DNA of 32,542 nucleotides. Source: Diploschistes diacapsis (lineage: Eukaryota). The notes beneath the pieces were generated by a model, which saw nothing but the letters and a program-made list of their open reading frames with translations, ran no database searches and was not told where the DNA came from. This document shows positions 1-26,415 of the stretch, piece by piece (position 1 is the first letter of the stretch; every line of letters starts with the position of its first letter). The DNA lies in assembly GCA_023645945.1 (NCBI GenBank), contig JALAIB010000100.1:1-32542 (forward strand), written 5' to 3'. The position numbers and the translations under genes are program-made.

Positions 1-1200
1 CTTCCGTAGTGTTCGTTATGGGAATATTAGTTTCATTCGATGGCGTTATTGTTTTAAGTACGCGAAATGCGGATTTAATTATCGGTAACGATCGTTCGAT
101 TATATTATTAATAATATTTATTCTTAAAAATATTTAAATATTATAATCTTTATTTATACAAGATATACACGAGTAAAATCAAAATAGGTTTGGTCTCTGT
201 TAGAAAAGAAATATAATAGAAAAAAAATATGAAATAATTATAAATCTTAGACTATCTTTAGAAAAAAAATTCTTTAATAATAAAAATAACGAATATAAAT
301 TAATCCCGAATAATAATTAAAAATATTTATAAAAATGAATATATCTTTTTTTATAAAAATAAAATCGTGTTTATATATAATTAGCTCGCTCGCCGTTTAT
401 CGTAAATTTAACGAGCGGTACCTTCGAGGCTCGTCGCTTATAAGAATAAACGCGACCGTCGAGCGGTAGCGAAAGCTTGCTCGCCGCTCGCGAGAATAAG
501 CGCGAGCAGTAAGCGCATCACGTGACCCCTGGTCCCGTGACTGACCTATATATAAAGCTAGGACGTGCCAAGTCTGGTACTTGGATCGTAACATAACGAA
601 ATCTTACGTTTAATTAAAAAACGGGATAACGCAAACAAAAATCGAAAAGAAAGAAAGAACGTAAAAGCTCTTAAGAATCTAAATAAACGACGTACGGACG
701 ACGAGAATTCTGTTTTATACGCTAAAACAGACATGATTTATTAAAATAATTTTAATATAGACTATAATAAAAGTAATCCTCTACTATCAAAAGACGGCTA
801 TATATAAACATAAAAGAAAATTTTTATCGAATCCATAGACCTAAATATTATAAACCATTAAATACTACGACAGACACGAGCGATTACTGTCTTATTAAAA
901 AGACGCGTGAAAAAAGACCACAAGAACACACAATCGTAAAACAGTTGGTAATTCGTAGAGCGCTAGAAGTTGTGTTATTTCTATTAAAGAAAGCGTAGCG
1001 AGCATGTATGAGTAGGTAGATGAAAATGATCAAGACGTGATCAGAAAGCAGTCACAGAATAAATATGGGTCGCAAAACCCCTGCGTTCCAAACAAGATGT
1101 ATTACCTATCTTCTCGTTTACACTATACTAAATTAAGTAAGTTATTGCGACGTCTAATTGGACAAGGAAGGAACTTCCACTAGAAAGAAATTTAAATGCA
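1..1200. mobile_element. AT-rich, RIP-degraded repeat/transposon relic, with a possible LTR terminus at ~593
   Basis: Very AT-rich with many TpA and few CpA/TpG, while CpG survives. No credible ORF. The minus strand reads TGTTACGATCC... from 593, resembling fungal Gypsy LTR ends (TG...CA). The family cannot be identified. Confidence 0.55.
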
Positions 1201-1561: not shown

Positions 1562-2312
1562 TCAATCGGTTCTCGCTGGTATCAAGCTCCCGACAGGAAC
1601 AGTGAACCTCGTGATCCCTCCTCCCCAGAGCCCTGCAGTAGCGGCCCAGTAGACCAAGAAGGCCGTTATGAAACCCAGGCCTCTGCTGGCCAAGATGACT
1701 TGGTCGTTGCCAACCATCAGGCCAGATGCGAGAAGAAGGAACTCGAGGCTGACGCACGCGAGTGCAAGCAACAGAACCCAGGAGGAGCGGGTTGCGGCCA
1801 CGGTGAAGATGACGGCCAGGATGAAGAAGGGCCAGATGAAGAGAGCGAGGGCCTGGTCAAAGTCCGGCGTTGGCAGGTGCGTCGTGGGATCCGCGTAGGC
1901 GGCCAGGATGCCGGTGCCAGGGATGAATATCATGGCGTAGGCGACGTTGAAGGAGCCAAATGTAAGGAAGACTGTGTAACCAAACTAGGGATGTGGTCAG
2001 TGATGGACGGACAGCGAGCGCGGGCGGCCCCAAAGCTTCAGAACTCACCGTGTTCCCGCTGATGTACTCCATGATGCCGGAGATGTACTGGCAGATGCCG
2101 CCGAAGAAGATCAGGGGACCGAGCGCGACATTCGAGACCGAGACTCCTCTGGCGCCAACTCCGAACAGGGAGATCAGCATCAGACTCGTCGCAAAGGCAA
2201 AGAGACCCAGCGGGGCGGGATTCGCGAAGCGACGATGCACGGCTGGAAGCGCCGGCTGAGATTCGGTGCGGTCGAGCGCATGCTTCTCGTGTATGGAAGC
2301 AGAGGAGGACAT
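1562..2312 (-). CDS. GPR1/FUN34/YaaH (Ady2/AcpA-like) acetate transporter family protein, ~228 aa, 2 exons (2312-2049, 1984-1562)
   Basis: Signature FANPAPLGLFAFA, then GGICQYISGIMEYISGNT|FGYTVFLTFGSF across a 64-nt GTGAGT...CTGAC...CTAG intron (2048-1985). About 6 hydrophobic helices. Confidence 0.92.
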
Positions 2313-2925
2313 GATGCTGCAGATCTGCTGTGAATTACAAAAGGAAATCGGTACTTCCGGTCAGGGAAACATCGGTCGAGCCAACACAGACTTCAACAAA
2401 GGTACAAAGTCAGGAAGACTGCCTGGGGGAGTGACGAGGACTTAAGAAGACGTGGAAATGGAGCGCGTTCCAGATGTATTCCGGTTTGTGGTTTTCTGGA
2501 GGAGGGGGGGGAAAACATTGGACCAGCTCCACTTTGGGAAAGTCAATATTCTCGGCTTTGATTGGAGTATAAAGCGTCCAATACCGCAGGAGTACCCCGG
2601 ATGAGGACAGCTGATTGCTATCGCAAGCCGTGCGCAATGCATAGAGTAAGGAGTAAGTCGAGTTGAAACCAAAGTTCGGCAGGTCAAAGGAATGGACCTA
2701 GGCAAGCGAGGCACGGCACGGCTTGTGCTAGCGGCAGTAGCGTGTGATGTCGGCGTCGCGACGTCTATAACTACGTTGGATAAGGTCAAGCTTCCCAATA
2801 GTAACTGTTGGACATCTTTTCGGCTCGTTAGCACAGGACCCGGAGCCAGCTTTCCTGTTGCTGGCGCGGGCTGGGGGGTGGGGGGCTAGCAGTCGACGTT
2901 TCATTCGTTTCTATTCAAGCTAATT

Positions 2926-4288
2926 CTAATTTGTTGGACCCGCAACACTTGTTGTAATGGCTACGCTTCGCGTCTTTGAGCGCTCCTCGCAATCTCTGTC
3001 CAACGAGTTAGGTGCTCGAGATTCCGTTTGCTCGAGTTGTGTCTCGACCATGATCGACCGGAGTGGAATGGCGTTCGCACGGTTTTCGAAGGAGTCACCG
3101 GCCGTTGTAAGCGCAGTGCCCGGCATGGTTCCGTCCAATGCCGCCTTGGTCTCAAGAATCCGCTCGAAGCCATCCGGATCCATTTTCATCATGTGTGAGC
3201 GATGACGGGGCCCGAAGGCAGCAGAGCCTCCACTGGGTGGATTGGACTGTGACCGCACGCGGCCGGGGAAGAAGAGTCGGAGGAAAATCGGGCGACACTG
3301 AGGGAGATTGGCGCAGATGAGGCCGACTTCGACCTCGACGGTGCTCCAAACTCCTGCTTTGACGTTGGTCCCTGCACCGCGTTAGCGTTAGACCCGTCGT
3401 ACAATAAAAAATCCCGTACATGTGAAGTCGGTGGGTACGATCAGTTTGATGGCCAGCAACCTGAAAATGCTCGTGATGCATACACTACCCTCGTGAGCAG
3501 AGTGCAGCGAAGCGTAGTGGAAAGAAAAACCCACAAGCTACCCAGAAGGAAGAGGAAAGAAACCGCGAGCTTCTGGCTCCGGGATGTCTGGAGCTTCCAA
3601 ATCATGTGCATTGGAAGGGCAAGAACCAAGACGTCCCCGACGATGTTGAGGGAGCCTCCACTCATGTAGAAGGCGGACTGGTCGAAGCATCCGCCGGCCT
3701 GAGCAGGGTTCCAGAAGTAGCTCACCGGAGTGCACTGGAAGATGAAGGAGAAGACGAGCGCGGTGTGTGTTGCAATGACGAAGGCTCCGACGACGAAGAC
3801 CAAGCGCCGGAACTGCCGGTCGTTGTTGAATATTCGCCAGTACAGTAACAGAATCCCAATCTTCACGAGTGCGGTGTTGATGGCCCAAGAAAACATGAAC
3901 ACGAAGAGGTTCTGATCAACGGATCAGCGACAGGCGGCATCAAGGAACGTACACGCATACCAGGAGGAAGCTATGAAGCATGGCTGGGGGCACATCGGAC
4001 TGATGTTGCCCTGATCCGAAGCTCACGCCAAGGTAGTTGAGGATGCTCATTTCCACGCAAGCAAGCTGCAAGCGTAAGCTTCAGAATATGCAACTTTGTC
4101 GGCAGATATACCAAGACAAAGGCCATCCAGTAATCGTCGAGCCAGAGGCCCGACTTCATGACTTTCCGCGACACTATTCGAACCACGTAGGAGATGATGC
4201 ATAATGTAAGGAGAGTCGTGGTCACGCCGATGGTCATGTCCTGATTGATCTGAGCCTCGGGCGAATTTTGCAAGCCAGAAGAACTCAT
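2926..4288 (-). CDS. PTH11-like integral membrane protein (fungal rhodopsin domain, no CFEM), 5 exons
   Basis: Spliced product contains RIVSRKVMKSGLWLDDYW, GSGQH, LVKIGILLLYWRIF, IFQCTPVSYFW, DVLVLALPMHMIWKLQ..SQK, FVCITSIFRL and WSTVEVEVGLICANLP. Four canonical GT-AG introns were read by eye. Confidence 0.9.
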
Positions 4289-4510
4289 GATGCACGTAAC
4301 GAATGACGATTGAGAAGCATAGGATACACAGGGGCGCACACAAGGGAAAGTAAGTGCCCAGCAGAAATACGATCCTTTGTAGAAGAAATCAATGGCCGTG
4401 CTGGACGATTATGTTATATAACATAGAGCGAGATCAACCTTGTGCCGTGGAGAAGGACTAAGGAGTAATGTTTTTGGGGGACTGAGTGCAGACGGCCGTA
4501 GTAGTAGTAG

Positions 4511-5351: not shown

Positions 5352-5569
5352 TATAGAACGCCCCTACAGGAAAGGATACTACACAACCAGGGGCCAAGCC
5401 TAATCTGGAAGGATCACGTGTAGCTTGGCATCTGTAGGCTGAATGGTTCAGATTCGAAAAGGTGCAGAACTAACTAGATAGGAAGTAGCGAGGTATAAAT
5501 ACTTCCCCAGGTCAGCCCTACAGCCATACGTGGTTCAACCCTTTAACCCACAAACGTTCAGGATGTTCC

Positions 5570-5800
5570 ACTTTACGATTATTAAAATCTACGTAAAGCT
5601 TATCGAAATCTCGAAAAGTATTAATAAATTTTTATATATTAATTTAAAATAAATCGAAATCTTACCGCCGCCGTTTTTATCGTTTATTTCCCTCTTTTAT
5701 TTAATTTTAATGGACGATTTTTAATTTAAATATCAAGAAAATAAAAATAAAATAATCGTTATTTCACTCGCTAATATTACGATAAATATTACGCCTGCGA
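5570..5800. mobile_element. Short AT-rich RIP-like relic
   Basis: Abrupt AT-rich patch, TpA-rich with residual C mostly in CpG. Same signature as 1-1200. Confidence 0.4.
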
Positions 5801-6076
5801 GGGCATCGTAAAGATGCCATCACGTATACGCAGAGAAGGCTGGAAAGGCTAGAAGGCTAGGCCGAGATTGGATTATTAAACCGAGGATGGTAAGCGCCAG
5901 CGTGATAGGGCTGGCTGCCAAACGCGCCACGTAGATGCGCTCTACCGTAGAGCAGCCTCCTTACAATAAAAACCCTTATAATCACCTCTCAGGAACTGGC
6001 ACTTGAAACCCCAACGCTCTCTCTCGCAGCTAGCCCAGGGTATACCCAAAAATCCCCGAAACCAGAGAAAATACAA

Positions 6077-6125
6077 GAATACGGAATACGGAATACGGAA
6101 TACTGAATACTGAATACTGAATACT
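6077..6125. repeat. 7-bp tandem repeat (GAATACG)3(GAATACT)4, just 3' of the reductase stop
   Basis: Directly visible. Confidence 0.9.
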
Positions 6126-6170
6126 GAAAAACCCTCCGCCCAAACGCTTGCCTCGCCAGCCTCACCAGCC

Positions 6171-8198
6171 TCACCATCCGTACTCCTCCGTCCACAGGTA
6201 GATGCCCTGCGCTCCGCTGCCTTTGTGAACTGCTCTTTCGTCCGATAGCCTCGTCACATAGGACCGAACATCTGCAGTGAGGTCCCTGCCTCCACAGGAT
6301 ATCACGGCAGTTTCGCCCCTCGCATTTTCCACCGCAGGTAAGATGACGCTGTCGAGAGAAGGGCGTGCCCCACACGAAATGTTGGCACAACCGCAGCTCC
6401 TTAGGGCGCACAGGCATTCCTTATTCTCCACCACCACCGACTGTACAACGCGAGGCCTTTCTGGGTCATAGTCCAAAGTCACAGAGTCGATCTTCTCGTT
6501 TGCATCGCCCTGTTGGCAGCACGATGCTGGAGCCTCCCAGATGGAGCTGTCGTCTACCTTGCAGCACTTGTCTGTGTCTGTGTCCGTGTCTGTGCCCGAG
6601 ACTGATATCTCGGTGACCAGGGGCTGACTTCCTTTGCCGCATGATTCTGGCGCAGAGATTTTCTGCTCTCGAGCACAGCAGCACGAGCACAACTCTGTTG
6701 CCCCGTCAGTGACTGCAACCTGAATGCACACCTTTGCGCCGTTGGCGGCAATCTCTTCGCTGGCCAAGATGAGTTGCTTCTGGAACCAAGTGACTTGATT
6801 TGGCTCGCGGCACACCCAGCAAAAAACCACGTTCTTTGCGCAGTATCTATTCTTGGCCATCTCTTGGAAGAGAGGGAGCGTGAAAGTCGCACCCGTTGAG
6901 TTGCAGATGAAGATGACCGTTTCGAACGACGACAGATTGGGAGGAATTCCCCACGGCCCACTGACGAAAGAGCGGTAGGGGCCCTTGTGAGCTGACTGGT
7001 ACAGTCGCCGCGAGAAGCCAGAGTGTGCTTTGATGTAGAGCGTCACGGTCATGTTGTCGTCGGGGGCATTGGCTATTGTGAAAGGATGCGCTTCTATGAG
7101 GCCGAGACGCGGGACCGTTAGGTAGAGGTGTTGCCCTGCCTTCCAACGGAAGCCGACGCGAGGGATGATGACCCTTGTGAAACTACCTGGCATGGCTTCG
7201 AGCGATGCCGAGTATCCAAACGTCCTGCCTCTCAAATTCTGGAATGCGTTCCATACGAACCTTCCAATTTGGTCAAACGCGACGAAAGCGACCGCCATCC
7301 AAATGTTGTAGGTTGCATACGCCGGCACATGCAGATACAGAAGCCACAGGAAGACACCGGCCGCCGCGAGATGCTGAAGGACCCAGAGTTCGTACCACAG
7401 GCTCCTAAAGAAGCCGAAACTGGACAGCACCATCCACCCGAGAACGCCCCAGGCGGCGAAGCCATATGTCACCATCGGCATCATCTGAATCTCCACGTTG
7501 ACGAAATCAGCAAGCGTCCATTCCGTAAAGAAGAAGGACCAGTGCACGATGACGGTCAGGAATATGGTCCTTGACGCCCAGCGATGGAACCAGTTCAGCC
7601 TTTCGTAAGAGATGCCGCTGAGCAGGGAAACGACGTTGAGCTTGCAGGCGAGGCAGAAGAGAAATGGAACCTGGGTGACGCTGACCCAAGCAGCCCGGAA
7701 GGCTACCTTCTCCCACTTGTATCCGTACAGGGGGTCGTCGGGCTGCAGCATGACGTTGGACCACAGCATCGATAGGATTATCAGCCAATAAGCCGCAATG
7801 ACGAGACAGCGACCGGCGGAAGGAGGCGTAAAGTGTCTGAATCGTCCTTTTAGCATCCAGGGCTGGCCATACGACATCTCGCGCAAGACCGCCGTCGCCG
7901 TGGCATGGGCCTGCGTGAGGTAGTTGTCTGGTTTTGAGGGAGTAGCATCTGGGCGGAGTCGAATCCTTCGGACACTGTACCGATCAGTTACCTTCACTGT
8001 TGTGGAAGTCCGAACGTACCTCCACCGCGCGACGAAGATTCTCAGGACTCTCAGGAGAGCAAGAAAGCCAACGAATGCTGCGACAATATACCATAAAGTT
8101 TGGGCTATCCCCATATTCTCAGGCGTGAAGAGTCCCGCTCCGTCGCTGTCCATACCGCTCATGCCCAGCCCACTCATATCCATGCCGTTCATGTCCAT
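6171..8198 (-). CDS. Ferric/cupric chelate reductase (FRE family, NOX-like flavocytochrome), ~660 aa, one probable 45-nt intron (8019-7975)
   Basis: Heme His pairs (NWFHRW...IVHW; LQHL...YLHV), GQH, FAD motif HPFTI, GPWG, STGATF and C-terminal EEYGW. The start is placed at MDMNGMDM rather than the upstream ATG at 8318. Confidence 0.93.
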   Translation of the reverse strand: MDMNGMDMSGLGMSGMDSDGAGLFTPENMGIAQTLWYIVAAFVGFLALLRVLRIFVARWRYVRTSTTVKVTDRYSVRRIRLRPDATPSKPDNYLTQAHATATAVLREMSYGQPWMLKGRFRHFTPPSAGRCLVIAAYWLIILSMLWSNVMLQPDDPLYGYKWEKVAFRAAWVSVTQVPFLFCLACKLNVVSLLSGISYERLNWFHRWASRTIFLTVIVHWSFFFTEWTLADFVNVEIQMMPMVTYGFAAWGVLGWMVLSSFGFFRSLWYELWVLQHLAAAGVFLWLLYLHVPAYATYNIWMAVAFVAFDQIGRFVWNAFQNLRGRTFGYSASLEAMPGSFTRVIIPRVGFRWKAGQHLYLTVPRLGLIEAHPFTIANAPDDNMTVTLYIKAHSGFSRRLYQSAHKGPYRSFVSGPWGIPPNLSSFETVIFICNSTGATFTLPLFQEMAKNRYCAKNVVFCWVCREPNQVTWFQKQLILASEEIAANGAKVCIQVAVTDGATELCSCCCAREQKISAPESCGKGSQPLVTEISVSGTDTDTDTDKCCKVDDSSIWEAPASCCQQGDANEKIDSVTLDYDPERPRVVQSVVVENKECLCALRSCGCANISCGARPSLDSVILPAVENARGETAVISCGGRDLTADVRSYVTRLSDERAVHKGSGAQGIYLWTEEYGW

Positions 8199-8343
8199 GG
8201 TTACAACAGAGAGGCCCAGCCTGATTGAAAAGATGAAGATACCGAGAAAGCGCAAGGGAGATAGCAAGACGGTTAGGAAGAGGTTGAAAGAAAATGAGCC
8301 AGAGGCGAGACCTACCATGCAGGAGCAGGATAAGGATTTACGT

Positions 8344-8690
8344 TGAGCACATATTTCCTGACTAATAGCTGCGACAGCTGATTTTGAGTCGTTGTTGCTG
8401 CGCAGATTTCAGCGATCGTGCATTCAATTACAACGTTGCCTAAGAAAACGAGTAGATGATACATGATGCACATATGTAGAGTTGGATGAGAGCGATTGCT
8501 GGTGTTTGAGCAAGTTTCAATTGGTCAGTGACAGTTCCAGTTCCTTTGACATGGGCGACCGAGACAAAGGCCTTTTTTCAATACACGCTATACCATATCC
8601 GGACAGTTTCTAGGGGCCGGAAGGAACTACTCTTCTCTCCTCGACATTCACTCATTTACCCAGCAAAACATGCTCGTTTTTGAGCATGTT
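8344..8690. promoter_or_regulatory. Putative copper-response (Mac1/Cuf1-type) elements in a divergent promoter
   Basis: TGTGCTCA on the minus strand (8344-8351), TTGCTCA on minus (8507-8513), TTTGCTG on minus (8661-8667), and the perfect inverted pair AACATGCTC-N6-GAGCATGTT (8667-8690). Confidence 0.5.
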
Positions 8691-8876
8691 AATCATCGAA
8701 GTTCCCCAGCCCCCATGTGTCGTTAACCCCTACCAAGCTCACCGTCGGAACGGTTACTTTAACTCTTGGTTTCCTCGACAAGTCTAACTAACTCCCCCCT
8801 CTTCTGCAACCAGGTTCACTAGGTACTTACATTATCCACCGCCAGTTACCTGAGACCCCCAACACAGCCTGCAAGC

Positions 8877-9549
8877 ATGTATCTCTCAACCGTCATAACC
8901 AGCCTGGCACTGGTCTGCCTGGGCTCCGCACACTTCCTGCTCAACTACCCGCCGACTCTCGGCTTCGACGACAGCACGGAAGGCAGTTCTCCCTGTGGCA
9001 ACGCGGCGATCAAATTCGGTGACAACGACACGGCCATCACCGTCGGTGGATTCCCTATTGCACTCCAGTCCACCCATCCGCAGGCACAGTGGTTATACCG
9101 TGCAACGCTGAGCCAACAGCAACCTTTCAACTGGACAAACATCGTCCCTGTCGTGCAGCAAAGCGGCCTGGGAGACTTTTGCCTGCCCGCCCTCTCACTA
9201 CCGAGCTCCTTTGCCAACCATTCGGGCCTTGTACAGGTTATCCAGAGTGCCGTTGATGGCCTACTCTACCAGGTAAGGTCCTGTTCTGCAGCTACCGTAC
9301 CTCTGCTGACCCAGCCAGTGCTCCGCTGTCAAGTTCGTTTCCGGGCCGAACAGCTCCGTCTCCGAAACCAGCTGTACGAATGCGACGGGGGTAACGGCCT
9401 CGCTGACGACCCAGTCAAACTTCACGAGCAGCGTTTCCGGATCCCCGTCTTCTGCGACCAGTAAGGCATTGGCAGCTCAAGCCACGGGAGGGAGCATTCT
9501 TGTAGCAGGTCTGGGTGCTGCTGCGTTGGCCGGATTAGCAGCTCTCTGA
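8877..9549 (+). CDS. GPI-anchored copper acquisition factor BIM1-like / X325 (LPMO-like His-brace) protein, 208 aa, 2 exons (8877-9272, 9319-9549)
   Basis: 18-aa signal peptide ending GSA, then mature N-terminal His (HFLLNYPPTLGFDD..GSSPCG), STHP, GLGDFCLP, and DGLLYQ|CSAVKF across a 46-nt intron. Followed by a Ser/Thr linker and a hydrophobic GPI-type tail (ILVAGLGAAALAGLAAL*). Confidence 0.88.
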
Positions 9550-10331
9550 GCGGTTGGCAGAATTCGATCCATGTGTAGAAGCAAATTGTGCAAATGACAA
9601 ATACAATGCTTTGCACCATCAATATCCATGGCGTCATGACCAAAATCTCCCATTATTTTGAATGTCCGTTATATGACAGCTGCCATGGCAGTTGCGGTCG
9701 TTGGAACAGCGTGCGTGACCAGAGGAAACATGCTCGTTCTGGCCCAAGGGTCGATAACCGAGGCAAAAACTTTGCTCTTGGCTGAGTCGGACCGGACACC
9801 GGAAAGTCCCCAGACAGGCACAGGCTATGTGGCAGCACCAATTGCCCAATCAATCGGAGCGGAATCTCGCCCTGCAAGTTCCTCTTTTCGAAAACCCCCT
9901 CCCAGCACAGCCGTCGCTACCCCACGAGAATTTACCGATGCTCGGCACTCTGGCGGGTTTCGCTCAGCAGCAAAGTGGAGTTTGTCGCACCTTGCTGTAG
10001 TAGCTTTTTTCGGGGCCCGGGATTCGCATACGGGTGGACTGCTCGTATCTACAGCCAAACCAAATCCTCGAATTGTCCCAGCCTGTTGCTCCCGCAGTGT
10101 TCTGTCTCGGAGAGAGCACGGTGGCCGGCCCCTCGGCCACAGGCTCGACTTGACGGCTCGAGTATCGGAATGAAAAATAAGCCTCCATCGTCAGACTCGG
10201 GAGGTGGGAAACGGCATCATCGGCCCGGGAGACTTGTGAGAATCACGGTTTTGATGCTCATTTGTAGGAATGTCTTGGTATTAAAAAATAATGTACTAGA
10301 AGTTACTATCGCAAGGTGCAAGCCATAAGTT

Positions 10332-11915
10332 TCACTTGTTCCACGCCTTGCCACCTTCCCTCTTCTTGTTCCAAGGATCCTTGGGGAATGTCCAGCCCCG
10401 GATTCTCTTGGCGTCCCTCCTCTCCGTGGCATTAGGTTCCGGAATCCACGTGTCCTTCTCGGCCAGGACATGCTGGCGTGTCATTGCTGCCGGAGCACCG
10501 ACGTTTATCCTCCAGCTGCACTGTCCCGGCAACGGTTCCTCCTTGGCCAGCATATGAAGGAACCACAGGGCAAGGTTGGCCGTCAGGCCCTCCTGGCAGC
10601 GAGTCTCGATGACCGGAGCCAGCTCCAGATGCCCGAAATACGGCATGTCGCCCGTCCCGGCACGGGCACAAACAAGTTCCGTTTCTGTCATGATGTACCC
10701 GTACCGGCACTGATGCTGTCGCATATAGAAATGAAGGGCTGCCAGGCCCTCCAGATACAAGATTCTGCTCCATCCCTGTTCGTTTCGCATCCCCGAGTTC
10801 CAGCGCTCGTAGGGACGTACAATGCCAACGATCCTGCCCCTTCCGTTGCCCGTGATGGTCTTCTCGTAGTCGTCCTGGTAGTTCGAGAGGAATGCAGGCC
10901 CATCTCGGTCCTTGTTGAGACGCATGGATGTGTACCGCGACCCTTGAGTGACTTTCATGGTCGCGTTGAGCTTGGCCATGTAAAAGTCTTTGATGATATC
11001 TACCAGAGCAGCCTCGGACTCGGGGAAGAGCCTGGCCGAAGAGATTTGTGGCTTCGGGAACGCAGAGTCGTTCACCGGGATAGAAAGAAGCTTCTCGAAA
11101 CCTGGAACGGCCATGATGGTCTCCAGGGTGAAGTCGTCCCAAGAGTCGATGTTGCGAACGTCCCACCAGAAGTGGGAATTCAGACGGTTGATGGTCCGGT
11201 TCACTTGACGTACGAGGTTGACGGCCGGATTCGCTGCTCGCATGTACTCCAAGGAAGTCATTGTCACCTCGTCGGCTTGTTCGCAGCGCTGCTCCTCTGG
11301 CAGGTCGTAGTAAAGAGCTTGACGGGGAGTCGCAGCTTGTGCAGTGAAGATTGCCGAGCCAGGAATGACCGAAGGACTCCAATATGCTCCCGAGATGTAG
11401 GCAGGCTGGCGACGGTAAGGATATCCGAATCTGTTTAGGGTGACGCTATCGACACTCGATGCAGACACGGAGCGGGAGTGTCCTGCACCGACAGGCGAAG
11501 CAACGTTTGAAAGGACGCCAAAAGAAAAGTTTGTGCTCGTCGAGGTTGCGGAGAAGGGAGAGAGGAGGTTGTTGTACTCTGGAGGGACGGTAGTGCTTCG
11601 CTGGAATGGCGGTCTGGCTTGGGTCGGTGGAGGGACATAGCTTTGCGAAACGGCTCGTCGATGGCCTTTGGTGGAGGTATTATGTGACTGGTCCTGCGTC
11701 CTAATCTTTGGGAGAAGCGCGGGGCCATGCTGACGAATGGGAGAACGGTCAAAGGGCGTGGTCTCGACGTGAACCTCGACAAGGTTCGGTGACGAGTGGG
11801 TAGTCCATGCCGAAGACTCGGAGAAATTAGGACTTAGGCCTTCCTCGATCAACTCAGGCACTGCAGCAGCGGTGGGAGGGGTGATGGGCCGGTATTGGTA
11901 GGGGGTGAGAGGCAT
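10332..11915 (-). CDS. Conserved fungal protein of unknown function, 527 aa: low-complexity S/P/T N-half and globular C-half (a family I recall being loosely labelled 'sialidase')
   Basis: Long intronless ORF with coding-like codon bias. ATG at 11915 (MPLTPYQY...). Motifs HFWWDVRN, YMRQHQCRYGYIMTETELVCAR and LALWFLHMLA. Confidence 0.8.
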   Translation of the reverse strand: MPLTPYQYRPITPPTAAAVPELIEEGLSPNFSESSAWTTHSSPNLVEVHVETTPFDRSPIRQHGPALLPKIRTQDQSHNTSTKGHRRAVSQSYVPPPTQARPPFQRSTTVPPEYNNLLSPFSATSTSTNFSFGVLSNVASPVGAGHSRSVSASSVDSVTLNRFGYPYRRQPAYISGAYWSPSVIPGSAIFTAQAATPRQALYYDLPEEQRCEQADEVTMTSLEYMRAANPAVNLVRQVNRTINRLNSHFWWDVRNIDSWDDFTLETIMAVPGFEKLLSIPVNDSAFPKPQISSARLFPESEAALVDIIKDFYMAKLNATMKVTQGSRYTSMRLNKDRDGPAFLSNYQDDYEKTITGNGRGRIVGIVRPYERWNSGMRNEQGWSRILYLEGLAALHFYMRQHQCRYGYIMTETELVCARAGTGDMPYFGHLELAPVIETRCQEGLTANLALWFLHMLAKEEPLPGQCSWRINVGAPAAMTRQHVLAEKDTWIPEPNATERRDAKRIRGWTFPKDPWNKKREGGKAWNK

Positions 11916-12930
11916 ATTGAATCGCTTGGATATTAGACAGCGGAGGCCGGCTCCAGAAGAAAGAAAATAGAACGACAAACACGCTTTGTTGGGTATCTTG
12001 GATGAAGAAAAGGAACAGGAAAAGGCAGCGCAAAGAGAAGAGTACTTATCTTCCACCGGTTGACCCCAGATGGATCTCTATCTGAAACAGAGTAGCGTCG
12101 TCTAGAATGAAAGCCGAACGCGATGCATAGCTGAAACAAAGCATTCAGAGCTCGGGGTATGAGCTCGATGCTGGATTAGGAAGAGCGAGGTTGTTGGGAA
12201 TAGGGAAGGTGAGCAGCGCGCGTTAACGCGGAGAAGTCTATTTGGAGGGACATAGTATGAGGTTGTAAGGCTACACAGTCCAAAGTCGACATTTGTAAAT
12301 AGAGGGCGGTTGTATCAGGCCAGGATGCGGGTAGCGTGCAGTGCTAGAGCTTTGAAGGTCCCAAGTTTGGGGAGAAAGGCGGCGAGTGGGCGTCTGTTTC
12401 GAGATGATGAAGCCTGGTGATGCTACGCGTTCGGATGAATATGGGACGTGTATAAAAATATCGTCTGGCCCGGCGCGTAGAGACTTTCAATTGAAGAACG
12501 ATTGGGCATGAGTAAGCGCCAAGAGGTGTAGTGGGCGATTCAGGCTCGAGGGCTTCGTGTCATGCTCGTGGCCAGAATTCAGCCAGTTTTCGCGACGCTG
12601 AAACACTAAAAATAAAGCCTCGTTCTTTTGCTGCACTCGGGATTGGCTAACTTGAGAAAACATGTTTCGATCGGTGGCTGGGATCTTGCTACAAAAGTAC
12701 TGAGTGAGGGACACACGCTACCCTCCACCCGAGGAGCATTGACGGCAATAATGATATCGCTGGCCACGTTTGAGGGCCGTGTACCAGACGTGTCAGAGCT
12801 CGCGCGCAATGCTTCGAGCAACTTTTCACTCTCGCAAAGACATCATGGCCAGGTTTGCTCGGATAGCGTATAGCGTAATAGCGAGAGAAATCAGCGGACA
12901 AGGAACATGCTGACAAAGTCATCTTCAGCT

Positions 12931-14472
12931 TCATCGACCCGTTTGGTATCTCTCCATTATGTCTCGCACATTGCGCTTCCACCATTCTTGCCAGTCTACA
13001 ACGATCTTCTTCCTTCTCGCTTCTTCCGCCGCAAACACCATGGCGTGGCTTCGGATGACATCTTCGAGCGTGCAGCCAATGTGCTGCATTTGTGCTTCGC
13101 TCGCGGATCGGCCGTTCTTCACATCACCAACCGCTGCTACAAAAGACCCAGCTAGCCCAGCGTCTCCTCCCCCATGGCCACCACCCGGTTGGTGTGGATG
13201 GTAAGTCTTCGTATGCTGGTCTGCAAAGGTGTGAACTCGCACCGCCTTGCTATCATACTCGATCTCTCCTTTCGTTCCGTATATTCTCCCCCTTCTTTCG
13301 CATTGCTTTTCGGTAAAGGCGACCATGTGGAAGGTAGCAGTCTTAGCGCCAAGACCGTTCCCATCGTCTTCCCAGTTCAGTGTGACCGTTTGGTCATCGC
13401 AGACATCGTTGTCCGACTCCCACACGCACCGCCCGAACCACGGTCGCTCATCAATTTCCTGCTGGCTTTTCGTGGTGTAGTCGTCCTCCAGAGCCGAAAG
13501 AAGTTTTTCCGTTGCTTCTTCTTTCTTTCCTGCAAGCCAGAGATCTTCCATTTCCGGCACCACAACATTGACGGGCCAACCAGGGTTGCCTTGCAACAGT
13601 TGGCGCTCCAGGTATACCTTCTTGGCGCTATACATGCAGTCCTTTTCGAACTCACACGATATGCAGTTGGTTGCTGTGCCAGCCTGTATTGGCTTGCGTG
13701 ACTTTTTGAAGAAGGTGAGCGAGCCAAAGGAGCTTACGTGACTCGGTAGATGCATTCCGTACCCCAATATCCATAGGATAAAATCTATATCGTGACAGGA
13801 CTTCGTAAGGAGCGAAGGCGCCGTGGCCGATTCCTTTCTCCAGTTGCCGCGCACATAGCTGTGGGAGAAATGCCACCATCCTACGGGCTCTGTATGCTCC
13901 ATCGAGACTATCTCTCCGATGACGGAGTTCTCGAGCAGGAGCTTTCGGAGGAGCATGTTGTGAGGACTGTATCGAAGGACATGTCCTATTGAGAATATGG
14001 TTTTAGGCACTTCTCCCCTAAGAGGCTCGATCGCCTTGTAGATCCGGATGCAGTCCTCCAGAGTCGTTGCCAGAGGCTTTTCGCACATCATATGCAAGTT
14101 CAATGGGGCCAGGTTCGTAATGACATCCACGTGCGTGTGGTCAAGCGTGCAAATAAAGACGCCGTCGAATCCAGACAACACTCGCTCGCCGGCAACCTCT
14201 CTCTTCCGACGGTGAGTCTCGTAGTGTAGGAAGTCTTGCCATGTGTCGAATTCTTGGTCTTCCTGTCTTTTATTATCGTACCATATATATTTCTCTCCTA
14301 GGCGGCGTCGATTCTGGGGAATGGGATCAGCAACTGAGGCGACGATGCCAACGTTTGACTCAAAAACAGCCTTGGCATAGGCATTCCCTCTTGATCCAGC
14401 TCCAATGATTAAAAATCTTGGTGTTGAGCAATTTGTGCCATTCATATTGTCTGTTGATTCATTGCCGGCCAT
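12931..14472 (-). CDS. Gfo/Idh/MocA family NAD(P)-dependent oxidoreductase (StrI-like), 513 aa
   Basis: IIGAGSRG Rossmann motif, MMCEKPLA, IGHVLRYSP, HSYVRGNWR, KSCHDID and GGHGGGD. Confidence 0.92.
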   Translation of the reverse strand: MAGNESTDNMNGTNCSTPRFLIIGAGSRGNAYAKAVFESNVGIVASVADPIPQNRRRLGEKYIWYDNKRQEDQEFDTWQDFLHYETHRRKREVAGERVLSGFDGVFICTLDHTHVDVITNLAPLNLHMMCEKPLATTLEDCIRIYKAIEPLRGEVPKTIFSIGHVLRYSPHNMLLRKLLLENSVIGEIVSMEHTEPVGWWHFSHSYVRGNWRKESATAPSLLTKSCHDIDFILWILGYGMHLPSHVSSFGSLTFFKKSRKPIQAGTATNCISCEFEKDCMYSAKKVYLERQLLQGNPGWPVNVVVPEMEDLWLAGKKEEATEKLLSALEDDYTTKSQQEIDERPWFGRCVWESDNDVCDDQTVTLNWEDDGNGLGAKTATFHMVAFTEKQCERRGRIYGTKGEIEYDSKAVRVHTFADQHTKTYHPHQPGGGHGGGDAGLAGSFVAAVGDVKNGRSASEAQMQHIGCTLEDVIRSHAMVFAAEEARRKKIVVDWQEWWKRNVRDIMERYQTGR

Positions 14473-14725
14473 TGCGTGAGGTTGGACGTTGTGGGGGAAG
14501 GCTAAAATGTCCCGAAGCAGAGATCACGGACGACGTTTGATGCAAGAAAGTGTGGTCTATTGTGGCATATTATAGTCAACACCATCTTTTCTACTCTTGA
14601 TTCCGAAGCCCCGAACCTTTCCCGTACGTGGTGGACAAAGCTTTCAAAGTTCAATCGACCTCTACTACGTGTGGTATGAGCAAGATTTCAATTAGCGAAC
14701 CTTTTCACTTGCATTGTTGAAGAAA

Positions 14726-15354
14726 ATGGTAACTAGATCAAACGCACCTCTTACGTGGATAGATTGTGAAGTAGCTCTCGAGCTCGCGTACATGAAGGTT
14801 GCTAAAAGAAGTAGATGACCGGGCTTGATAGGCAAAACGATCAAATCATGTCTGTCTGCTGCTTCGTGACAGATGCAAACCTGAACCTGTACGACCAGAC
14901 AGGGTTTGAGGCCGTCATTCATCACGACCAGGCCACGCTCGACCGGATGAACGACTGGTGCACTGCTACTCACGGCAAAAATGGGCTCACAGAAGCCTGT
15001 CTGAACTCTGCTACATCCGCCGAAGAAGCGGCGACTGGGCTACTGGCCTACATTCAACGATACGTTCCTGAAGAACGGAAGGCGCTGCTTGCGGGAAATA
15101 GCGTCCATGCAGACAAGGATTTCCTCAGCAGGAGACCCTACGACGCTGTGATCCGGCACCTCCATTATCGCATACTGGACGTCAGCAGCCTAAAGGAAGC
15201 GGCACTTCGGTGGGCACCGGACCAACAGCTGGAGCTAATGCCAAAGAAAAAGAACTTGCATCAAGCCAGGGACGATATACTTGAGAGCATCCAGGAAGCG
15301 AAGTACTATCGGGACATTTTCTTCCAGCAAAAGGCCAGAAAAAATGGGGAATGA
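14726..15354 (+). CDS. REX2: Oligoribonuclease (DEDDh exonuclease), ~194 aa, 2 exons (14726-14770, 14815-15354)
   Basis: PLTWIDCE|MTGLD joined across a 44-nt intron. Also THGKNGL, LAGNSVHADKDFL, LHYRILDVSS and HQARDDILESI. Confidence 0.93.
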
Positions 15355-15645
15355 GCTATTCGAGTCTTGTATTTGGCCCTAAATGCTCCAGCATTAGACA
15401 CAACTTCAAGTTGATCGAGGAAAGAAATTTTGCCTTCGTCGCTTTCTAGACCCTGAACATTCACCCAACCCACTCTCAACCCCCCACCATATTCACCCCT
15501 CCAAAACTTTAACCGTTCCGTCACTGTTAATGGATAAGATCATAAAACTTGTTCAGAGCTCCTTCTTCAACGTTCAAATAACTACTCATTGATTGACCAA
15601 CGCTTGAGCCTTCAAGTTCACAGTTCTGGATCTATCAAACTCACC

Positions 15646-17417
<1,772 letters not shown>

Positions 17418-17706
17418 AAGAAATGTGGACTTGAAGGAGTAGCGAGCGTACTTGCGGTACAAACACGGAAAAGTTGACATGTTTAACGGAGTTTGCGTCA
17501 CCATAGCAATAACCGTAACGAACAATATGGAAATTTCATAACCAATGATCGTGGCACTCGGTGGATGTAATGCAAACCCTAATAAAGATACACAAGTTCT
17601 AGTAACGCCCAATCAAGTCCTTACCTCGAGTCTCATGTGGCCGCTAGTCTACTCGTTCAGGCCAACACCGGGTTTCGCTGGCAGCCCAGCATCCGAATGC
17701 CCACCA

Positions 17707-19056
17707 TCATTGTTGAAAGTCGAATGGTCGTTGTGCGTTCTTGGCTTTGGACGCATCGTACCTCCAGATGCCATTGGTCTTGTCCCCTTCCACCTTCTCT
17801 CCGACGGGCTTGGCCAACTTGTCGAATATTGGATCCTGCTTGAGCCGGGAGAAGAAGGTCCGCTGCCACTCTTTTCCCTCCGCCTGCTCCTTCTTTCGCA
17901 TCTCACGCTGCTGGTTCTCAATCTTGGATTTTTCGTAACTCGTAGTGTCCATGTCGCCCTTCAAGATAGCATTGGCCACCTTATTCCAGGCCTTTTTGCT
18001 TTCGCGTGGGCTCTGCTCCTCCAACGGAGGGATCTTCAGCTTCGTTGTGGGGTTCTGACTCGCGCTGTAGGTCTCTATGACTCGGCCATGCTTCGAACTG
18101 CCTTCCTTGATGGTGAAGCTGTCGTTCCACTGCCCGTCAACGCTGTACAGCACATCCTTTTCTTTGCCCTCCTTCACTAGGGTCGCACTGAAGGTGTTCT
18201 TCTTCCCAGATACCCATCCCTTGCCAGAGTAATCAATCTTTGAAATGTAGCCTGTAGAAGATGTGATGGTGGTCGACTTGTTCAGCTCGACGAAGGGAGA
18301 TCCATATATGAGATTTTCAATGTGGATCGACGGTAGCGTGATCAAGTAGTCTTCGTTCAAGGCGTCGAGGTGATAGATGGCGTGGCCAATCTGCTTAACG
18401 TGGATGGTACGTGAGAAGGAGGCCTTTTGACCGTTGTACCCTTGGAGCTACATGAAGGTTAGGAACGGAATATACCCGGTTTTCCAGAGGTGCTCACTCG
18501 GACGCCGTGCTTCTCGTTTGCGATGCAGTACGCCGTAACTGGTGGATGATGACTGTAGCGGTCAACAAGGACTTTTAACCTTGACAAATGTCCTTACCTG
18601 ACTTGCTCCGAGACCAGCGTCGTTGTACCCGCCGTGTCTTCCCACTCCCCCAAAAACAACTCGCCCAGAAACGGATTCAGGGGCTTCTTCTCCGAGCCAA
18701 GTGTATCACTGCGACTGCAATATTGCTGCTTAAGTGTGCTTAAGAACCACCTGAGGACCAGAAGTGCGCGCTTGGCGGGGTCCTTCTCCGACGCAGGAGC
18801 GACAAAAATCGATGGGTGCTCGGCCCAGTACGAGGAAAACTCAGTCAGCGAGATGGTGCCGAGAATGAAGGGTGGGGCAGTCAGGGACGATAGATCGCCG
18901 TTGAAAGAGGCTATGGACTAGAGGATGTTTCAGCATTAATAGACAAGGAACTGCTTAGACAAAGCCCACCTTCAGAAAACTGCCCCAGGAGCCACGTTGT
19001 GCAGGTGCGACTCCACCCCCTTCAGTGCTGGAGTCCTGAGTCGGTGATGACGGCAT
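17707..19056 (-). CDS. KES1: Oxysterol-binding protein, Kes1/Osh4 type, 4 exons
   Basis: [39 protein letters not shown], the OSBP signature EQVS|HHPP across an intron, and [13 protein letters not shown]. Confidence 0.93.
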
Positions 19057-19713
19057 TGAGAGGAAAAGGACAGGAAAAATAGAGTAGAGAAAGGGCGGGG
19101 TGGTGATAGTATAAAAGTCAGAACAAGAAGAGAGTCTAAGAAAAAGAATGAGGTAGAGCCAAATCAGTTGAAGCCTTCATGGGGATGACGATGCTTGTGG
19201 TTCTGGTCTTGGGATCGACGTTTTACTGCTTGCTCCTGGCTGGGTGGGTTACCTGCTGCATCTCTCGTGAGGTGGCTTTCGAAGGGACTATTATTATGCA
19301 GAGGATTATTATTATACCTCGGTGGCTGGAAATTTGTGGCGGTGCGCTGTCATGTGGGGATGCCATCATCATTCCAATTACATACCTACGTACGTACAGA
19401 AGAGCAACACCAGAACTTTGGCAAATAAAGCATCTCAAGACTGTTATGGATACAGCATGCTCCAGAGATTTCCTATATGGCAATTCTGAAGTTGCTAGCA
19501 ATGCATGTCATGGTTATTCTCTGCAACGTTGTTTGTCTGTACCCGTGGACTGTATAGAATACGGTCCACATCCAGCTAGCGCTAATAATTTTTTTCTAAA
19601 AAGTAATAGCATCTCTTGCATCGTGCCTATCCCATACAAATTCTTCAAGGTTATCTACAAACGACTTCGGTTGATTCTTTCCCTCACGTCTTTACCACTC
19701 CCTTTTGCTGCCG

Positions 19714-21807
19714 ATGTATAGTCTCGGTAGAAGAGGTCATGCCTCTGTAGCTCAAGCCCTCCGCATCTCCTTTCTACCGACATCTGCCCCTCCCAGGTTA
19801 TTGTCCTTGCCTCCTTCATTGCTTAAGAGGAGCCTCTTGCGGCCGATTCAACCCTTCTCCTCATGTTTTCCGCGAAGCAACCCAGCAGCAGCAGCTGCGG
19901 CAGCAACGGTCGCTCCCGAAGATGGGCCAGTCGGGGCCAATGAACCTATTACAAGATTCGAAGATCTGGCCAAGAGACAACTGGTTTGCCGCACAGTTGT
20001 CGATACCTTAATGCACGGGATGCTGTTGGAGACTATGACTGCCGTTCAATCTCAAACTATCCATGAAGCATTGAAAGGAGACGACATGTAAGTTTCCCCC
20101 CACCCCAAACTCCTATCACTGAAGTAAAGTAGCCTTGCTCGAGCACGAACAGGAACGGGAAAAACTTTGGCATTCCTCATCCCGGTCCTGCAGAGAATAA
20201 TAGGCCAGGACCCTACCCTCGAGCGACCGGCTCCCCGAGCGTTTCCCATCAAGCCTTCAGAAACTGGAAGATATCGGCGACCATCCACCAATACGCGCAA
20301 CTCAGATATCAGAGCGATCATCATATCGCCCACTCGCGAGCTTGCTGAACAAATAGCGGTAGAAGCTCGAAGAATTACACAGGGTACCGGCGTGGTGGTA
20401 CAGACAGCCGTGGGTGGTACCGGCAAACAAGCGGGGCTCTGGAGGATCCGGAATCAAGGATGCCATATTCTGGTCGGCACTCCCGGACGTCTCAACGATA
20501 TACTATCGGATCCGACCAGCGGTGTGGCCGTCCCGAATCTGGATGCCCTTGTTCTGGACGAGGCGGACCGCTTGCTTGACCAAGGATTCGCGGCAGAGAT
20601 TGAGAGCATCAGGCAGTTACTCCCATCGGCATCTACGAGAGACAGGCAGACGCTCATGTTTTCTGCTACTGTTCCCAAGGAGGTCATGCAGATGGTGGGG
20701 ACGTTCATGAAACGCGGTTATCGGTTCGTCCAAACTGTGCAGCCTGGTGAGCAACAGACCCACGAGCGCGTGGTGCAAAAAGCGGTATATGTCAACGGTC
20801 TTGAAAACATGCTCCCGTCTCTCCTGGAGTTGATACGCCGCGAAGAAGGCCGTCAAGATTCCGGGTCTCCGTTCAAGGCTATTGTTTTCTTCAATGCTAA
20901 TACGGAGGCCCAGCTGTCCAGAGCCATTTTCCAAAACCTTAGGAGCCACGATGCTCGAAAAGTGCCCATCATCGAAATGCACGCCAAGTTGACGCAAATC
21001 AACCGTACCCGAGCTTCTGATATGTTTCGCCGAGCCAAGAGCGCGGTCATGTTCTCCTCCGATGTATCGGCCCGCGGAATGGATTTCCCAAATGTGACGC
21101 ATGTGATTCAGATGAATCTGCCTCGGGATCAGGAAACATATATCCATCGCCTTGGTCGTACGGCGCGAGGAGACAAGAGAGGAGAAGGCTGGATCTTCAT
21201 GACGCCAATGGAGCAGAGGGTGGCAAGACAGCGCCTCAAGGGTTTGCCCCTTGTCGAAGATTCTTCGCTCGAGGTGCCCCGGATCGACATGACCAAGGAC
21301 TCACAGCTCCCTGCGAGTGTGGCACAGTGTTTGACGGAGACCATCGATGCGGCAAGACAAACGGATCTCAAGCTAAAAGCTGCCGCATATACGGCTACCC
21401 TAGGGACATTCCAATGGGCGAGCAAGGGACCATTGGTAGAGATGATGAACCGCCGGGCGATACACGGTTGGGGGATGACAGAACCACCGAGCATTTCAGC
21501 GCCTCTGGCCCAAAAATTGAACCTCCGTGGCTTGCCAGGCCTAAGAATAGCAGCCTCAAATACAACGTCAAGGGACTCTGCCGATCTAGGTTCCTCGAGC
21601 TACAGGGGAGGTGGAAGCCGGATGAGCGATAGAGGTAGGACGCAGTTTAAACCGAGGGAACAGCGACGCTTCGAACCGAGGGAACAACGACGCTTCGAAC
21701 CGAGGGAACAGCGACGTGAGCCATTTCAGCAACGCGGCGATACGGGAATGATGGCCAGGTCCCAGGGCTTCAGAAGCAGGTCAAGAGACGCCAGTTACAA
21801 TTATTAA
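19714..21807 (+). CDS. MSS116: Mitochondrial DEAD-box RNA helicase Mss116/CYT-19-like, 2 exons (19714-20087, 20133-21807)
   Basis: Basic/Ser-rich presequence, Q motif MTAVQSQT, ARTGTGKT, PTRELA, TPGRL, DEAD, SAT, ARGMDFP, HRLGRTAR and a basic C-tail. Confidence 0.88.
21650..21717 (+). repeat. 24-bp coding tandem repeat x~3 (PREQRRFE) in the helicase C-tail
   Basis: aaccgagggaacagcgacgcttcg repeated nearly three times. Confidence 0.9.
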
Positions 21808-24149: not shown

Positions 24150-24333
24150 GATGCTGTGGACCAAGTGCTTTAACTAAGCAGGTCGTATAAGACAATTGAG
24201 CACTCCTCCGCGGATTTTAGCGAAGGAAAGTAAATAACGGAAACTCTTACATATAAAATATTGAAATAGTCTACCTACTACTAGAAAATACATCACAGGT
24301 TGAAAGTCAAACCCAATATTCCTTTACAAGAAA

Positions 24334-25816: not shown

Positions 25817-26121
25817 CGGTAGCTCTTTAGATGAGCCAAATGCTAACATCAGAGCTGAAAATAGAAATACATGTAAATACGGTTCTTCTTTCCGTTTGGT
25901 ACTCTCTCCCCTTACCAATTTTAAGGTCGGGTTTCTAATCCCTCGAAAGCCAATACATGCGGTGCAAAAGCAAGGTAATTTCTGAGCAGGTACGCAAGAG
26001 AAGCATGATGCGAAAGGTATACATACTTTTTGTATTGCACAGACTCTTGCTTATGTTGTTGGCGAACAAACGAAGGTCGGGTTTAGTAAAGCGCTGGCAC
26101 CGATTCCCTGCCATGGCTGCT

Positions 26122-26415
26122 GATTCAGGAGCACCAGCTGCTCCGCACCCAGTCCATACAAATCTCGTAGGGCTGACAATAAATCTGCATACACGCTAAG
26201 TTAGGTCCCATACAAATCTGTATGTGCATTTTCCTTAAGCTTTTTCTCAAGTCATTTTTCTCCGTACACTTTAAAGCTCATTCTTAGAGCTTAACCTTTT
26301 TGCAACAGTGCATATGTAATGCATACTAATTACTATGGGAACTAGATATGAGCTAAACGGCTTGGCAGGCACACTATATGTGGACAGGGTCGGGAGCCGG
26401 TGGTGCTCCTGAATC
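26122..26415. repeat. 294-bp element bounded by 39-bp imperfect inverted repeats (degenerate MITE-like)
   Basis: Left arm GATTCAGGAGCACCAGCTGCTCCGCACCCAGTCCATACA versus reverse complement of the right arm GATTCAGGAGCACCACCGGCTCCCGACCCTGTCCACATA: 32/39 identical, first 15 perfect. No obvious target-site duplication. Confidence 0.65.

What the first reader, a model, noticed from the sequence alone, without database searches (positions are those of the whole stretch)
6171..9549. Divergent reductase + His-brace BIM1/X325 gene pair: putative two-gene copper-acquisition module
Seen: a FRE-family reductase (minus) and a GPI-anchored His1 protein (plus) sit head-to-head 678 bp apart, with several GCTC-core motifs between them. 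Established: Cryptococcus Bim1 is a Cuf1-induced surface Cu(II)-binding protein that aids Ctr1 uptake, and Ctr transporters need Cu(I) made by FRE reductases. Inference: the anchored protein captures Cu(II) and hands it to a co-regulated cupric reductase. Alternatively, the reductase is the membrane electron donor for an LPMO-like copper centre. I do not know of this physical linkage being characterised. No Ctr gene is present in the window.
Basis: partly seen in the sequence, partly recalled or inferred. Interest (0 to 1): 0.8.

Follow-up and report, generated by a model that had tools for sequence, protein, structure and literature searches.

The report
Conserved fungal copper-scavenging gene pair
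A likely lichen-forming fungus carries a metal-reductase gene back to back with a gene for a predicted copper-binding surface protein; related genes are neighbours in several fungal classes and are switched on by copper starvation in two other fungi, so the pair likely feeds copper uptake, but the linkage itself was already in print with the surface protein unrecognised.

Summary
A 660-aa FRE reductase (6171-8198, minus, one in-frame intron) and a 208-aa BIM1/X325 protein (8877-9549, plus) diverge across exactly 678 bp. Bare GCTC is not enriched there, but the published Fusarium Mac1 site DHNTGCTCA occurs 3 times (0.28 expected, P=0.003). Related genes are neighbours in Agyrium, three Fonsecaea species, Exophiala sideris, Pseudogymnoascus, Fusarium and, with a Ctr between them, Aspergillus fumigatus. 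In F. oxysporum the pair fre10/FOXG_02393 is published as divergent, Mac1-bound and induced by copper limitation, with FOXG_02393 called 'uncharacterized'. It is BIM1-like and 44% identical to the window protein. In P. destructans the neighbouring genes move together with copper (r=0.98). Best reading: a Mac1-driven pair in which the surface protein holds Cu(II), the reductase makes Cu(I) and an unlinked Ctr imports it. Direct hand-off is untested. The linkage is known; what this adds is the naming of the partner and the fact that reductase and BIM1-like gene stay together where the Ctr is elsewhere.

The parts
8020..8198 (-). FRE-family metalloreductase, exon 1: Met-rich N-terminus (6 Met in the first 16 residues) and first predicted membrane helix
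7975..8019 (-). 45-nt in-frame GT-AG intron of the reductase gene
   Evidence: one contig of run X4 skips it; GT..AG ends printed; the annotated Agyrium relative lacks the 15 residues
6171..7974 (-). FRE-family metalloreductase, exon 2: ferric-reductase membrane domain with four invariant His, FAD- and NADPH-binding domains, Cys-rich insert; 660 aa in all
8199..8876 (.). 678-bp shared divergent upstream region
8344..8352 (-). Mac1-type site DHNTGCTCA; also the only TGTGCTCA in the window
8507..8515 (-). Mac1-type site DHNTGCTCA; the same 11-mer lies about 490 bp upstream of the Met-rich Ctr on contig C4211
8667..8690 (.). Inverted repeat with 9-bp arms and 6-bp spacer; the right arm is the third DHNTGCTCA site (8681-8689, minus), the left arm a TGCTCG variant
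8877..9272 (+). BIM1/X325-like gene, exon 1: predicted signal peptide, His19 (8931-8933, predicted mature His1), His67 (9075-9077), Asp127 (9255-9257)
9273..9318 (+). 46-nt GT-AG intron; full-length relatives continue with Cys after the same Tyr/Phe-Gln
   Evidence: no RNA evidence
9319..9549 (+). BIM1/X325-like gene, exon 2: end of the domain, Ser/Thr-rich linker, hydrophobic GPI-signal-like tail

Best explanation
The two genes sit head to head around three Mac1-type sites and likely form a copper-starvation pair, in which the anchored His-His-Asp protein would hold Cu(II) at the cell surface, the reductase would turn it into Cu(I) with cytosolic NADPH, and a Ctr encoded elsewhere in the genome would import it. 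Shown here: anatomy, families, conserved ligand residues, motif enrichment, conserved neighbourhood, unlinked Ctr genes. Shown in relatives by others: Mac1 binding and copper-dependent co-expression. Inferred: copper binding by this protein, cupric reductase activity of this FRE, and the order of steps. Whether Cu(II) passes by direct contact or through the wall and solution is open.
For: F. oxysporum fre10/FOXG_02393: divergent, shared promoter with multiple Mac1 sites by ChIP-seq, both Mac1-dependently induced in -Cu (PMC11563359). FOXG_02393 is PF20238, 44% identical to the window protein (E 4e-48) against 23% (E 8e-4) to the other paralog of this genome. P. destructans VC83_03095 (BLP2) and VC83_03096 (FRE): log2FC +1.91/+1.52 in BCS and -1.88/-1.70 in Cu, r=0.98 over 21 samples, flanking genes low in all conditions, proteins +3.57/+3.59. 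Consecutive locus tags in Agyrium rufum, Fonsecaea pedrosoi, F. monophora, F. nubica and Exophiala sideris. A. fumigatus Afu6g02800/02810/02820 are adjacent and co-induced. Motif 3 against 0.28. Four heme His invariant in 55 of 55; His/His/Asp invariant in 65 of 65. Fold of the Agyrium relative matches LaX325 (E 1.5e-8). Three Ctr genes on other contigs. In F. oxysporum, ctr3 rescued mac1 loss only together with a reductase (fre9).
Against: No expression or binding data for this organism. Orthology of this FRE to fre10 was not tested (sequence not obtained). Gene orientation is known only here and in F. oxysporum; in Exophiala xenobiotica the neighbour is a more distant X325 (27% identity) in tandem orientation. 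The P. destructans correlation is driven by the three conditions and does not show a shared promoter; BLP3, which is not numbered next to any of the three copper-responsive reductases, is induced far more. The A. fumigatus triple deletion was menadione-sensitive but was not reported on low copper in the passages I saw. Afu6g02820 was listed as higher in wild type than in the aceA mutant under high copper. Only 1 of the 3 Ctr genes here has such sites clearly upstream.
Confidence: 0.75

Rival explanations
1. The pair answers copper starvation, but its main job is wall or redox homeostasis: the X325 protein mobilises or buffers wall-bound copper, and the link to the reductase is only a shared promoter.
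For: Cbi1 loss alters chitin/chitosan and has Ctr1-independent phenotypes (PMC9258870). The A. fumigatus triple deletion is menadione-sensitive. Bim1 releases copper on H2O2 exposure.
Against: The same paper places Cbi1 in copper delivery to Ctr1. In A. fumigatus a Ctr lies between the two genes. Menadione sensitivity would also follow from copper shortage in Cu/Zn-SOD (inference).
Confidence: 0.12
2. The reductase is the membrane electron donor for a catalytic, LPMO-like copper site.
For: LPMO-like fold (LPMO hits follow LaX325 at E 4e-4); a membrane electron source is next door.
Against: The Asp that fills the site left free in LPMOs is invariant. Bim1 is reported as not redox-active, and several X325 proteins showed no polysaccharide activity. 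Induction by copper shortage in relatives fits acquisition better than a copper-consuming enzyme (inference).
Confidence: 0.05
3. The reductase serves iron uptake under SreA/HapX, and the neighbour is incidental.
For: FRE enzymes often reduce both metals (PMC10382037); one HGATAR and one CCAAT box lie in the 678 bp.
Against: No ATCWGATAA site (motif recalled) in the region. The A. fumigatus triple deletion grew normally on iron-limited medium. Relatives respond to copper in both directions.
Confidence: 0.05
4. The adjacency is inherited synteny without function.
For: Only species where both partners surfaced could be scored; misses could not be counted.
Against: The link spans Lecanoromycetes, Eurotiomycetes, Leotiomycetes and Sordariomycetes (class names recalled); ChIP and expression data in Fusarium; enriched sites here.
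Confidence: 0.03

Closest known systems
Fusarium oxysporum fre10 (FOXG_18310) / FOXG_02393 divergent Mac1-bound pair (PMC11563359)
   Same: Two genes, divergent, shared promoter with several TGCTCA sites, no Ctr in the pair; FOXG_02393 falls in the same X325 group as the window protein.
   Different: The paper calls FOXG_02393 uncharacterized and has no mention of Bim1 or X325. FRE orthology not tested. Different class of fungus.
Aspergillus fumigatus Afu6g02800 (GPI protein) - Afu6g02810 (ctrA2) - Afu6g02820 (metalloreductase) (PMC2481287)
   Same: Adjacent, co-induced GPI protein and reductase. PMC13208438 lists XP_747797 and XP_747795 as homologues of BLP2 and its neighbouring FRE; that these are Afu6g02800 and Afu6g02820 is my inference from the numbering.
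   Different: A Ctr lies between the two genes; here there is none and the Met-rich Ctr is on contig C4211.
Pseudogymnoascus destructans BLP2 (VC83_03095) and reductase VC83_03096 (PMC12113139, PMC13208438)
   Same: BIM1-like protein and FRE with consecutive tags, both copper-regulated at RNA and protein level.
   Different: 'adjacent' has 0 hits in either main text; orientation unknown to me; sequences not compared here.
Cryptococcus neoformans Bim1/Cbi1 and Laetisaria LaX325 (PDB 6IBH/6IBI/6IBJ)
   Same: PF20238, His-His-Asp site, fold, GPI-type tail.
   Different: About 20% identity of the Agyrium relative to LaX325. Bim1's described partner is Ctr1; I saw no reductase partner in the passages read.
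Divergent Ctr-FRE pairs: A. nidulans ctrA-freC, F. oxysporum ctr3/fre9 and ctr1b/fre12
   Same: Reductase sharing a Mac1-type promoter with a copper-uptake gene; 110 of 127 species in PMC7705104.
   Different: The partner here is a surface binding protein, not a transporter.

Membership tests
X325/BIM1-like (PF20238) | Profile match above the curated cut-off | tested here: met
   82.2 bits against 27
X325/BIM1-like (PF20238) | His directly after the signal peptide | tested here: met
   His19 after a hydrophobic leader, invariant in 65 of 65, aligns to LaX325 residue 1; cleavage site inferred, no predictor run
X325/BIM1-like (PF20238) | Second His and Asp ligand on a Gly-containing loop | tested here: met
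   His67 and Asp127-Gly invariant in 65 of 65; aligned to a His and the Asp-Gly of LaX325; ligand description from PMC7529816
X325/BIM1-like (PF20238) | LaX325 beta-sandwich fold | tested here: met
   Model of the Agyrium relative (58% identical to the window protein), best Foldseek hits 6IBI/6IBH, E 1.5e-8; the window protein itself was only an alignment row
X325/BIM1-like (PF20238) | GPI anchor | tested here: inconclusive
   Ser/Thr 44% in residues 150-190 and hydrophobic tail (hydropathy 2.05); no GPI predictor available
X325/BIM1-like (PF20238) | Binds Cu(II); no polysaccharide oxidation | not testable with these tools
   needs purified protein
FRE metalloreductase | Ferric-reductase, FAD- and NADPH-binding domains | tested here: met
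FRE metalloreductase | Four heme-ligating His and the HPFT motif | tested here: met
   His205/219/276/290 (unspliced numbering) and His371 invariant in 55 of 55; their roles are recalled
FRE metalloreductase | Cupric reductase activity | not testable with these tools
   needs assay
F. oxysporum fre10/FOXG_02393-type Mac1 pair | X325 partner of the same subgroup | tested here: met
   E 4e-48 against E 8e-4 for the paralog; the paralog branches apart with FastTree support 0.989
F. oxysporum fre10/FOXG_02393-type Mac1 pair | Divergent genes with several DHNTGCTCA sites | tested here: met
   3 sites, P=0.003
F. oxysporum fre10/FOXG_02393-type Mac1 pair | Reductase orthologous to Fre10 | not tested
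   FOXG_18310 was not among the named hits
F. oxysporum fre10/FOXG_02393-type Mac1 pair | Mac1 present and binding | tested here: inconclusive
   2 copper-fist loci in the genome, not assigned to Mac1 or Ace1; binding not testable
A. fumigatus three-gene cluster | Ctr gene between the GPI protein and the reductase | tested here: not met
   none of the Ctr matches is on contig C3; no remnant, best tblastn E 0.24 elsewhere in the window
Catalytic LPMO | Free copper position where X325 has Asp | tested here: not met
   Asp127 retained

The most novel reading that the evidence does not exclude
This FRE subfamily is the dedicated release factor for X325/BIM1 proteins: it reduces Cu(II) while it sits in the histidine brace, its Met-rich N-terminus catches the Cu(I), and a Ctr imports it. 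That would answer how a Cu(II)-binding, redox-inert protein feeds a Cu(I) transporter, and why reductase and X325 genes stay together where the Ctr is elsewhere, and why Exophiala xenobiotica pairs the reductase with a different X325 subgroup.
Probability: 0.3. Interest if true: 0.65.

Novelty: new member of a known kind. Interest (0 to 1): 0.38.

Why it matters
The mechanism of Bim1/Cbi1 is described as unknown (PMC9258870). This locus joins three published but unconnected observations: the A. fumigatus cluster of 2008, the F. oxysporum Mac1 pair of 2024 and the P. destructans data of 2025-26. It names the 'uncharacterized' partner as an X325 protein and points to one specific reductase as the candidate for releasing its copper, which can be tested in yeast or in vitro. 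It also separates a copper-linked X325 subgroup from the distant paralog in this genome. As a single locus it is ordinary.

Tried and rejected
Metagenome scan with the reductase: 3 loci, all short matches to the N-terminal stretch (E about 1e-4); not used. Sequencing runs: no RNA holder listed. In one search, runs X2, X3 and X5 cover parts of both genes, but no listed piece spans the whole stretch; the 6 substitutions of the X2 contig over 8417-8846 miss the TGCTCA cores, but most gap letters were not shown, so motif conservation is not claimed; X2 and X5 have the inverted-repeat spacer one base shorter, so fixed spacing is not claimed. Bare GCTC as a signal: rejected. TTGAGCAWGTT: 51 matches in the genome against 31 for the control, twice only on this contig; the pattern was drawn from these sites, so it is not an independent test. 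FRE-X325 fusion: 1 of 273 proteins over 450 aa carries both (P0306); it lacks the signal peptide and His1, while the E. xenobiotica records listed beside it have separate proteins, so I read it as a merged gene model. First tree had the paralog in the wrong frame; redone. The last cluster look-up named Pestalotiopsis, Phaeoacremonium, Lignoscripta and a Dothideomycete reductase but no further pair. For most named species only one partner surfaced in the top-120 lists, so absence could not be scored. PMC3364853, PMC9550227 and PMC11509074 added nothing on linkage. Earlier-findings look-ups returned nothing.
Full report
Observation. The region holds two genes that diverge across 678 bp (8199-8876). 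On the minus strand, 8198-6171 encodes a FRE-family reductase with all three Pfam domains. One contig of run X4 (kind uncertain, flagged 'RNA? probably DNA') skips 7975-8019, a 45-nt GT-AG stretch, and the annotated Agyrium relative lacks those 15 residues; the protein is therefore 660 aa. Four His of the membrane domain and the HPFT motif are invariant in 55 of 55 aligned relatives (55 chosen from the 120 listed). On the plus strand, 8877-9272 plus 9319-9549 encodes 208 aa: leader, His19, PF20238 domain (E 6e-23), Ser/Thr linker, hydrophobic tail. His19, His67 and Asp127 are invariant in 65 of 65 relatives chosen and align with LaX325 (E 1.5e-6). A model of the Agyrium relative finds LaX325 first (E 1.5e-8), LPMOs only at E 4e-4. 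The best DNA holder is a lichen metagenome and the nearest named proteins are from Agyrium rufum, so the organism is likely a lichen-forming ascomycete.

Promoter. GCTC alone is not enriched (8 against 5.9, P=0.22). The Mac1 consensus published for F. oxysporum, DHNTGCTCA, occurs three times, against 0.28 in 3000 dinucleotide shuffles (P=0.003); 1 of 156 tiles from the window and 11 own-genome stretches reaches three. Two such sites lie about 490 and 1510 bp upstream of the Met-rich Ctr on contig C4211; the other two Ctr genes show no clear upstream cluster in the stretches fetched. The genome has three Ctr genes, eight FRE-domain loci, two X325 genes and two copper-fist genes (lower bounds). 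The second X325 gene (C2002) is only 26% identical, and no FRE match lies on its contig; its N-terminal motif resembles Neurospora HAM-7 by my recall only.

Conservation. Consecutive locus tags for reductase and BIM1-like gene: A. rufum MMC25_004618/004617; Fonsecaea pedrosoi Z517_04609/04610, F. monophora AYO21_07259/07260, F. nubica AYO20_00885/00886; Exophiala sideris PV11_03777/03776. In E. xenobiotica the consecutive accession is a more distant X325 in tandem orientation, once merged into an 841-aa model. Of the 6 reductase hits at 62% identity or more, 5 share a contig length with a BIM1-like hit; distance and orientation are not given. These are the cases in which both partners surfaced; of the 30 look-ups most had only one partner on hand, so no fraction of genomes can be given.

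What is in print. PMC11563359 (passages and a partial supplement search; files 13-17 not searched): fre10 and FOXG_02393 are divergent, share a promoter with multiple Mac1 sites by ChIP-seq and are induced in -Cu in a Mac1-dependent way; FOXG_02393 is 'uncharacterized', and Bim1 and X325 have 0 hits in the main text. My search returned FOXG_02393 as a BIM1-like relative, 44% identical to the window protein. The paper says Fre10 is not a direct orthologue of yeast Fre7, so I do not call the window gene FRE7. PMC2481287 (passages): Afu6g02800, 02810 and 02820 are adjacent and co-induced by neutrophils; the triple deletion is menadione-sensitive and normal on low iron. PMC12113139 (passages and supplement rows, file cut when stored) and PMC13208438 (passages and tables): BLP2 VC83_03095 and reductase VC83_03096 rise in BCS and, as RNA, fall in copper; neither main text uses 'adjacent'. 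PMC7705104 (passages): Ctr-FRE pairs are conserved in 110 of 127 species. PMC7529816, PMC7924993 and PMC9258870 (passages): Bim1 is not redox-active, releases copper with H2O2, interacts with Ctr1, and its mechanism is open. PMC8425704, PMC5810475, PMC10382037, PMC11509074, PMC9550227 and PMC3364853 were seen as passages. Searches listed no paper whose title, abstract start or read passages name a BIM1/X325-reductase gene pair; the library lacks most subscription papers, and I did not read the two 2020 papers that defined X325 and Bim1 or their supplements, which may bear on this.

Mechanism. Most likely (0.75) the pair is switched on by Mac1 when copper is scarce; the anchored protein would bind Cu(II) through His-His-Asp, the reductase would pass electrons from NADPH through FAD and two hemes, and an unlinked Ctr would import Cu(I). 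The anatomy and motifs are shown here, regulation is shown in relatives, and the chemistry is inferred. The reductase begins with a Met-rich stretch (4 or more Met in the first 25 residues in 37 of 55 relatives), like the Met motifs of Ctr proteins; a role in catching Cu(I) is inference. Against a tight two-part machine: BLP3 is induced more strongly and is not numbered next to a copper-responsive reductase, orientation varies, and no low-copper deletion phenotype was seen in the passages read. Rivals: wall or redox role with shared regulation only (0.12), LPMO-like catalysis (0.05), iron (0.05), neutral synteny (0.03).

Verdict. Real, conserved and already reported as a linkage, so a new member of a known kind. 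The added value is the identification of the partner across three literatures and the testable idea that this reductase releases copper from the brace (probability 0.3). Two earlier reports of this scan describe the three-gene form in other genomes; I had reached the 2008 paper before seeing them. Interest 0.38.

Noticed in passing
window 6380-6690 (minus), within the reductase NADPH domain: Cys-rich insert (CSCCC, KCCK, SCCQ, CLCALRSCGC) with a short Thr-Asp repeat. Similar Cys clusters in the close relatives P0003 and Agyrium P0009, not in Fonsecaea, Exophiala or Oidiodendron. Could bind cytosolic metal; untested.
   Followed up: partly
window 9726-9738: The 13-mer at 8666-8678 (TGCTCG variant of the site) recurs exactly about 180 bp downstream of the BIM1-like stop.
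   Followed up: no
P0306 / KAK5252132.1, Exophiala xenobiotica: 841-aa FRE plus X325 record, likely a merged model; it shows a second X325 subgroup lying in tandem behind the reductase in this species.
   Followed up: partly
L023 4211-5042 (G000 C2002): Second X325 gene, 238 aa, two introns; His1 kept, but His rather than Asp near the Gly-containing loop; resembles HAM-7 by recall.
   Followed up: partly
window 1-1000 and 5500-6150: AT-rich stretches with dinucleotide ratios like RIP-mutated repeats; 5800-5950 has very high contig depth in run X2, so it is likely multi-copy; a 7-base tandem repeat lies at about 6078-6128.
   Followed up: partly
window 10332-12077 (minus) and 30393-32534 (plus): Long open frames of 581 and 713 codons without any Pfam match.
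   Followed up: no
window 1857-4408 (minus) and 12931-30102: Neighbours are unrelated to copper: Gpr1/Fun34 transporter, fungal rhodopsin-domain receptor, GFO oxidoreductase, exonuclease, phosphoglucomutase, oxysterol-binding protein, DEAD helicase, UBC-like protein, chorismate synthase, NmrA-like protein, Obg GTPase.
   Followed up: no
L021 3049-5048 (G000 C4197): One of the unlinked Ctr genes lies beside a CVNH-domain gene.
   Followed up: no
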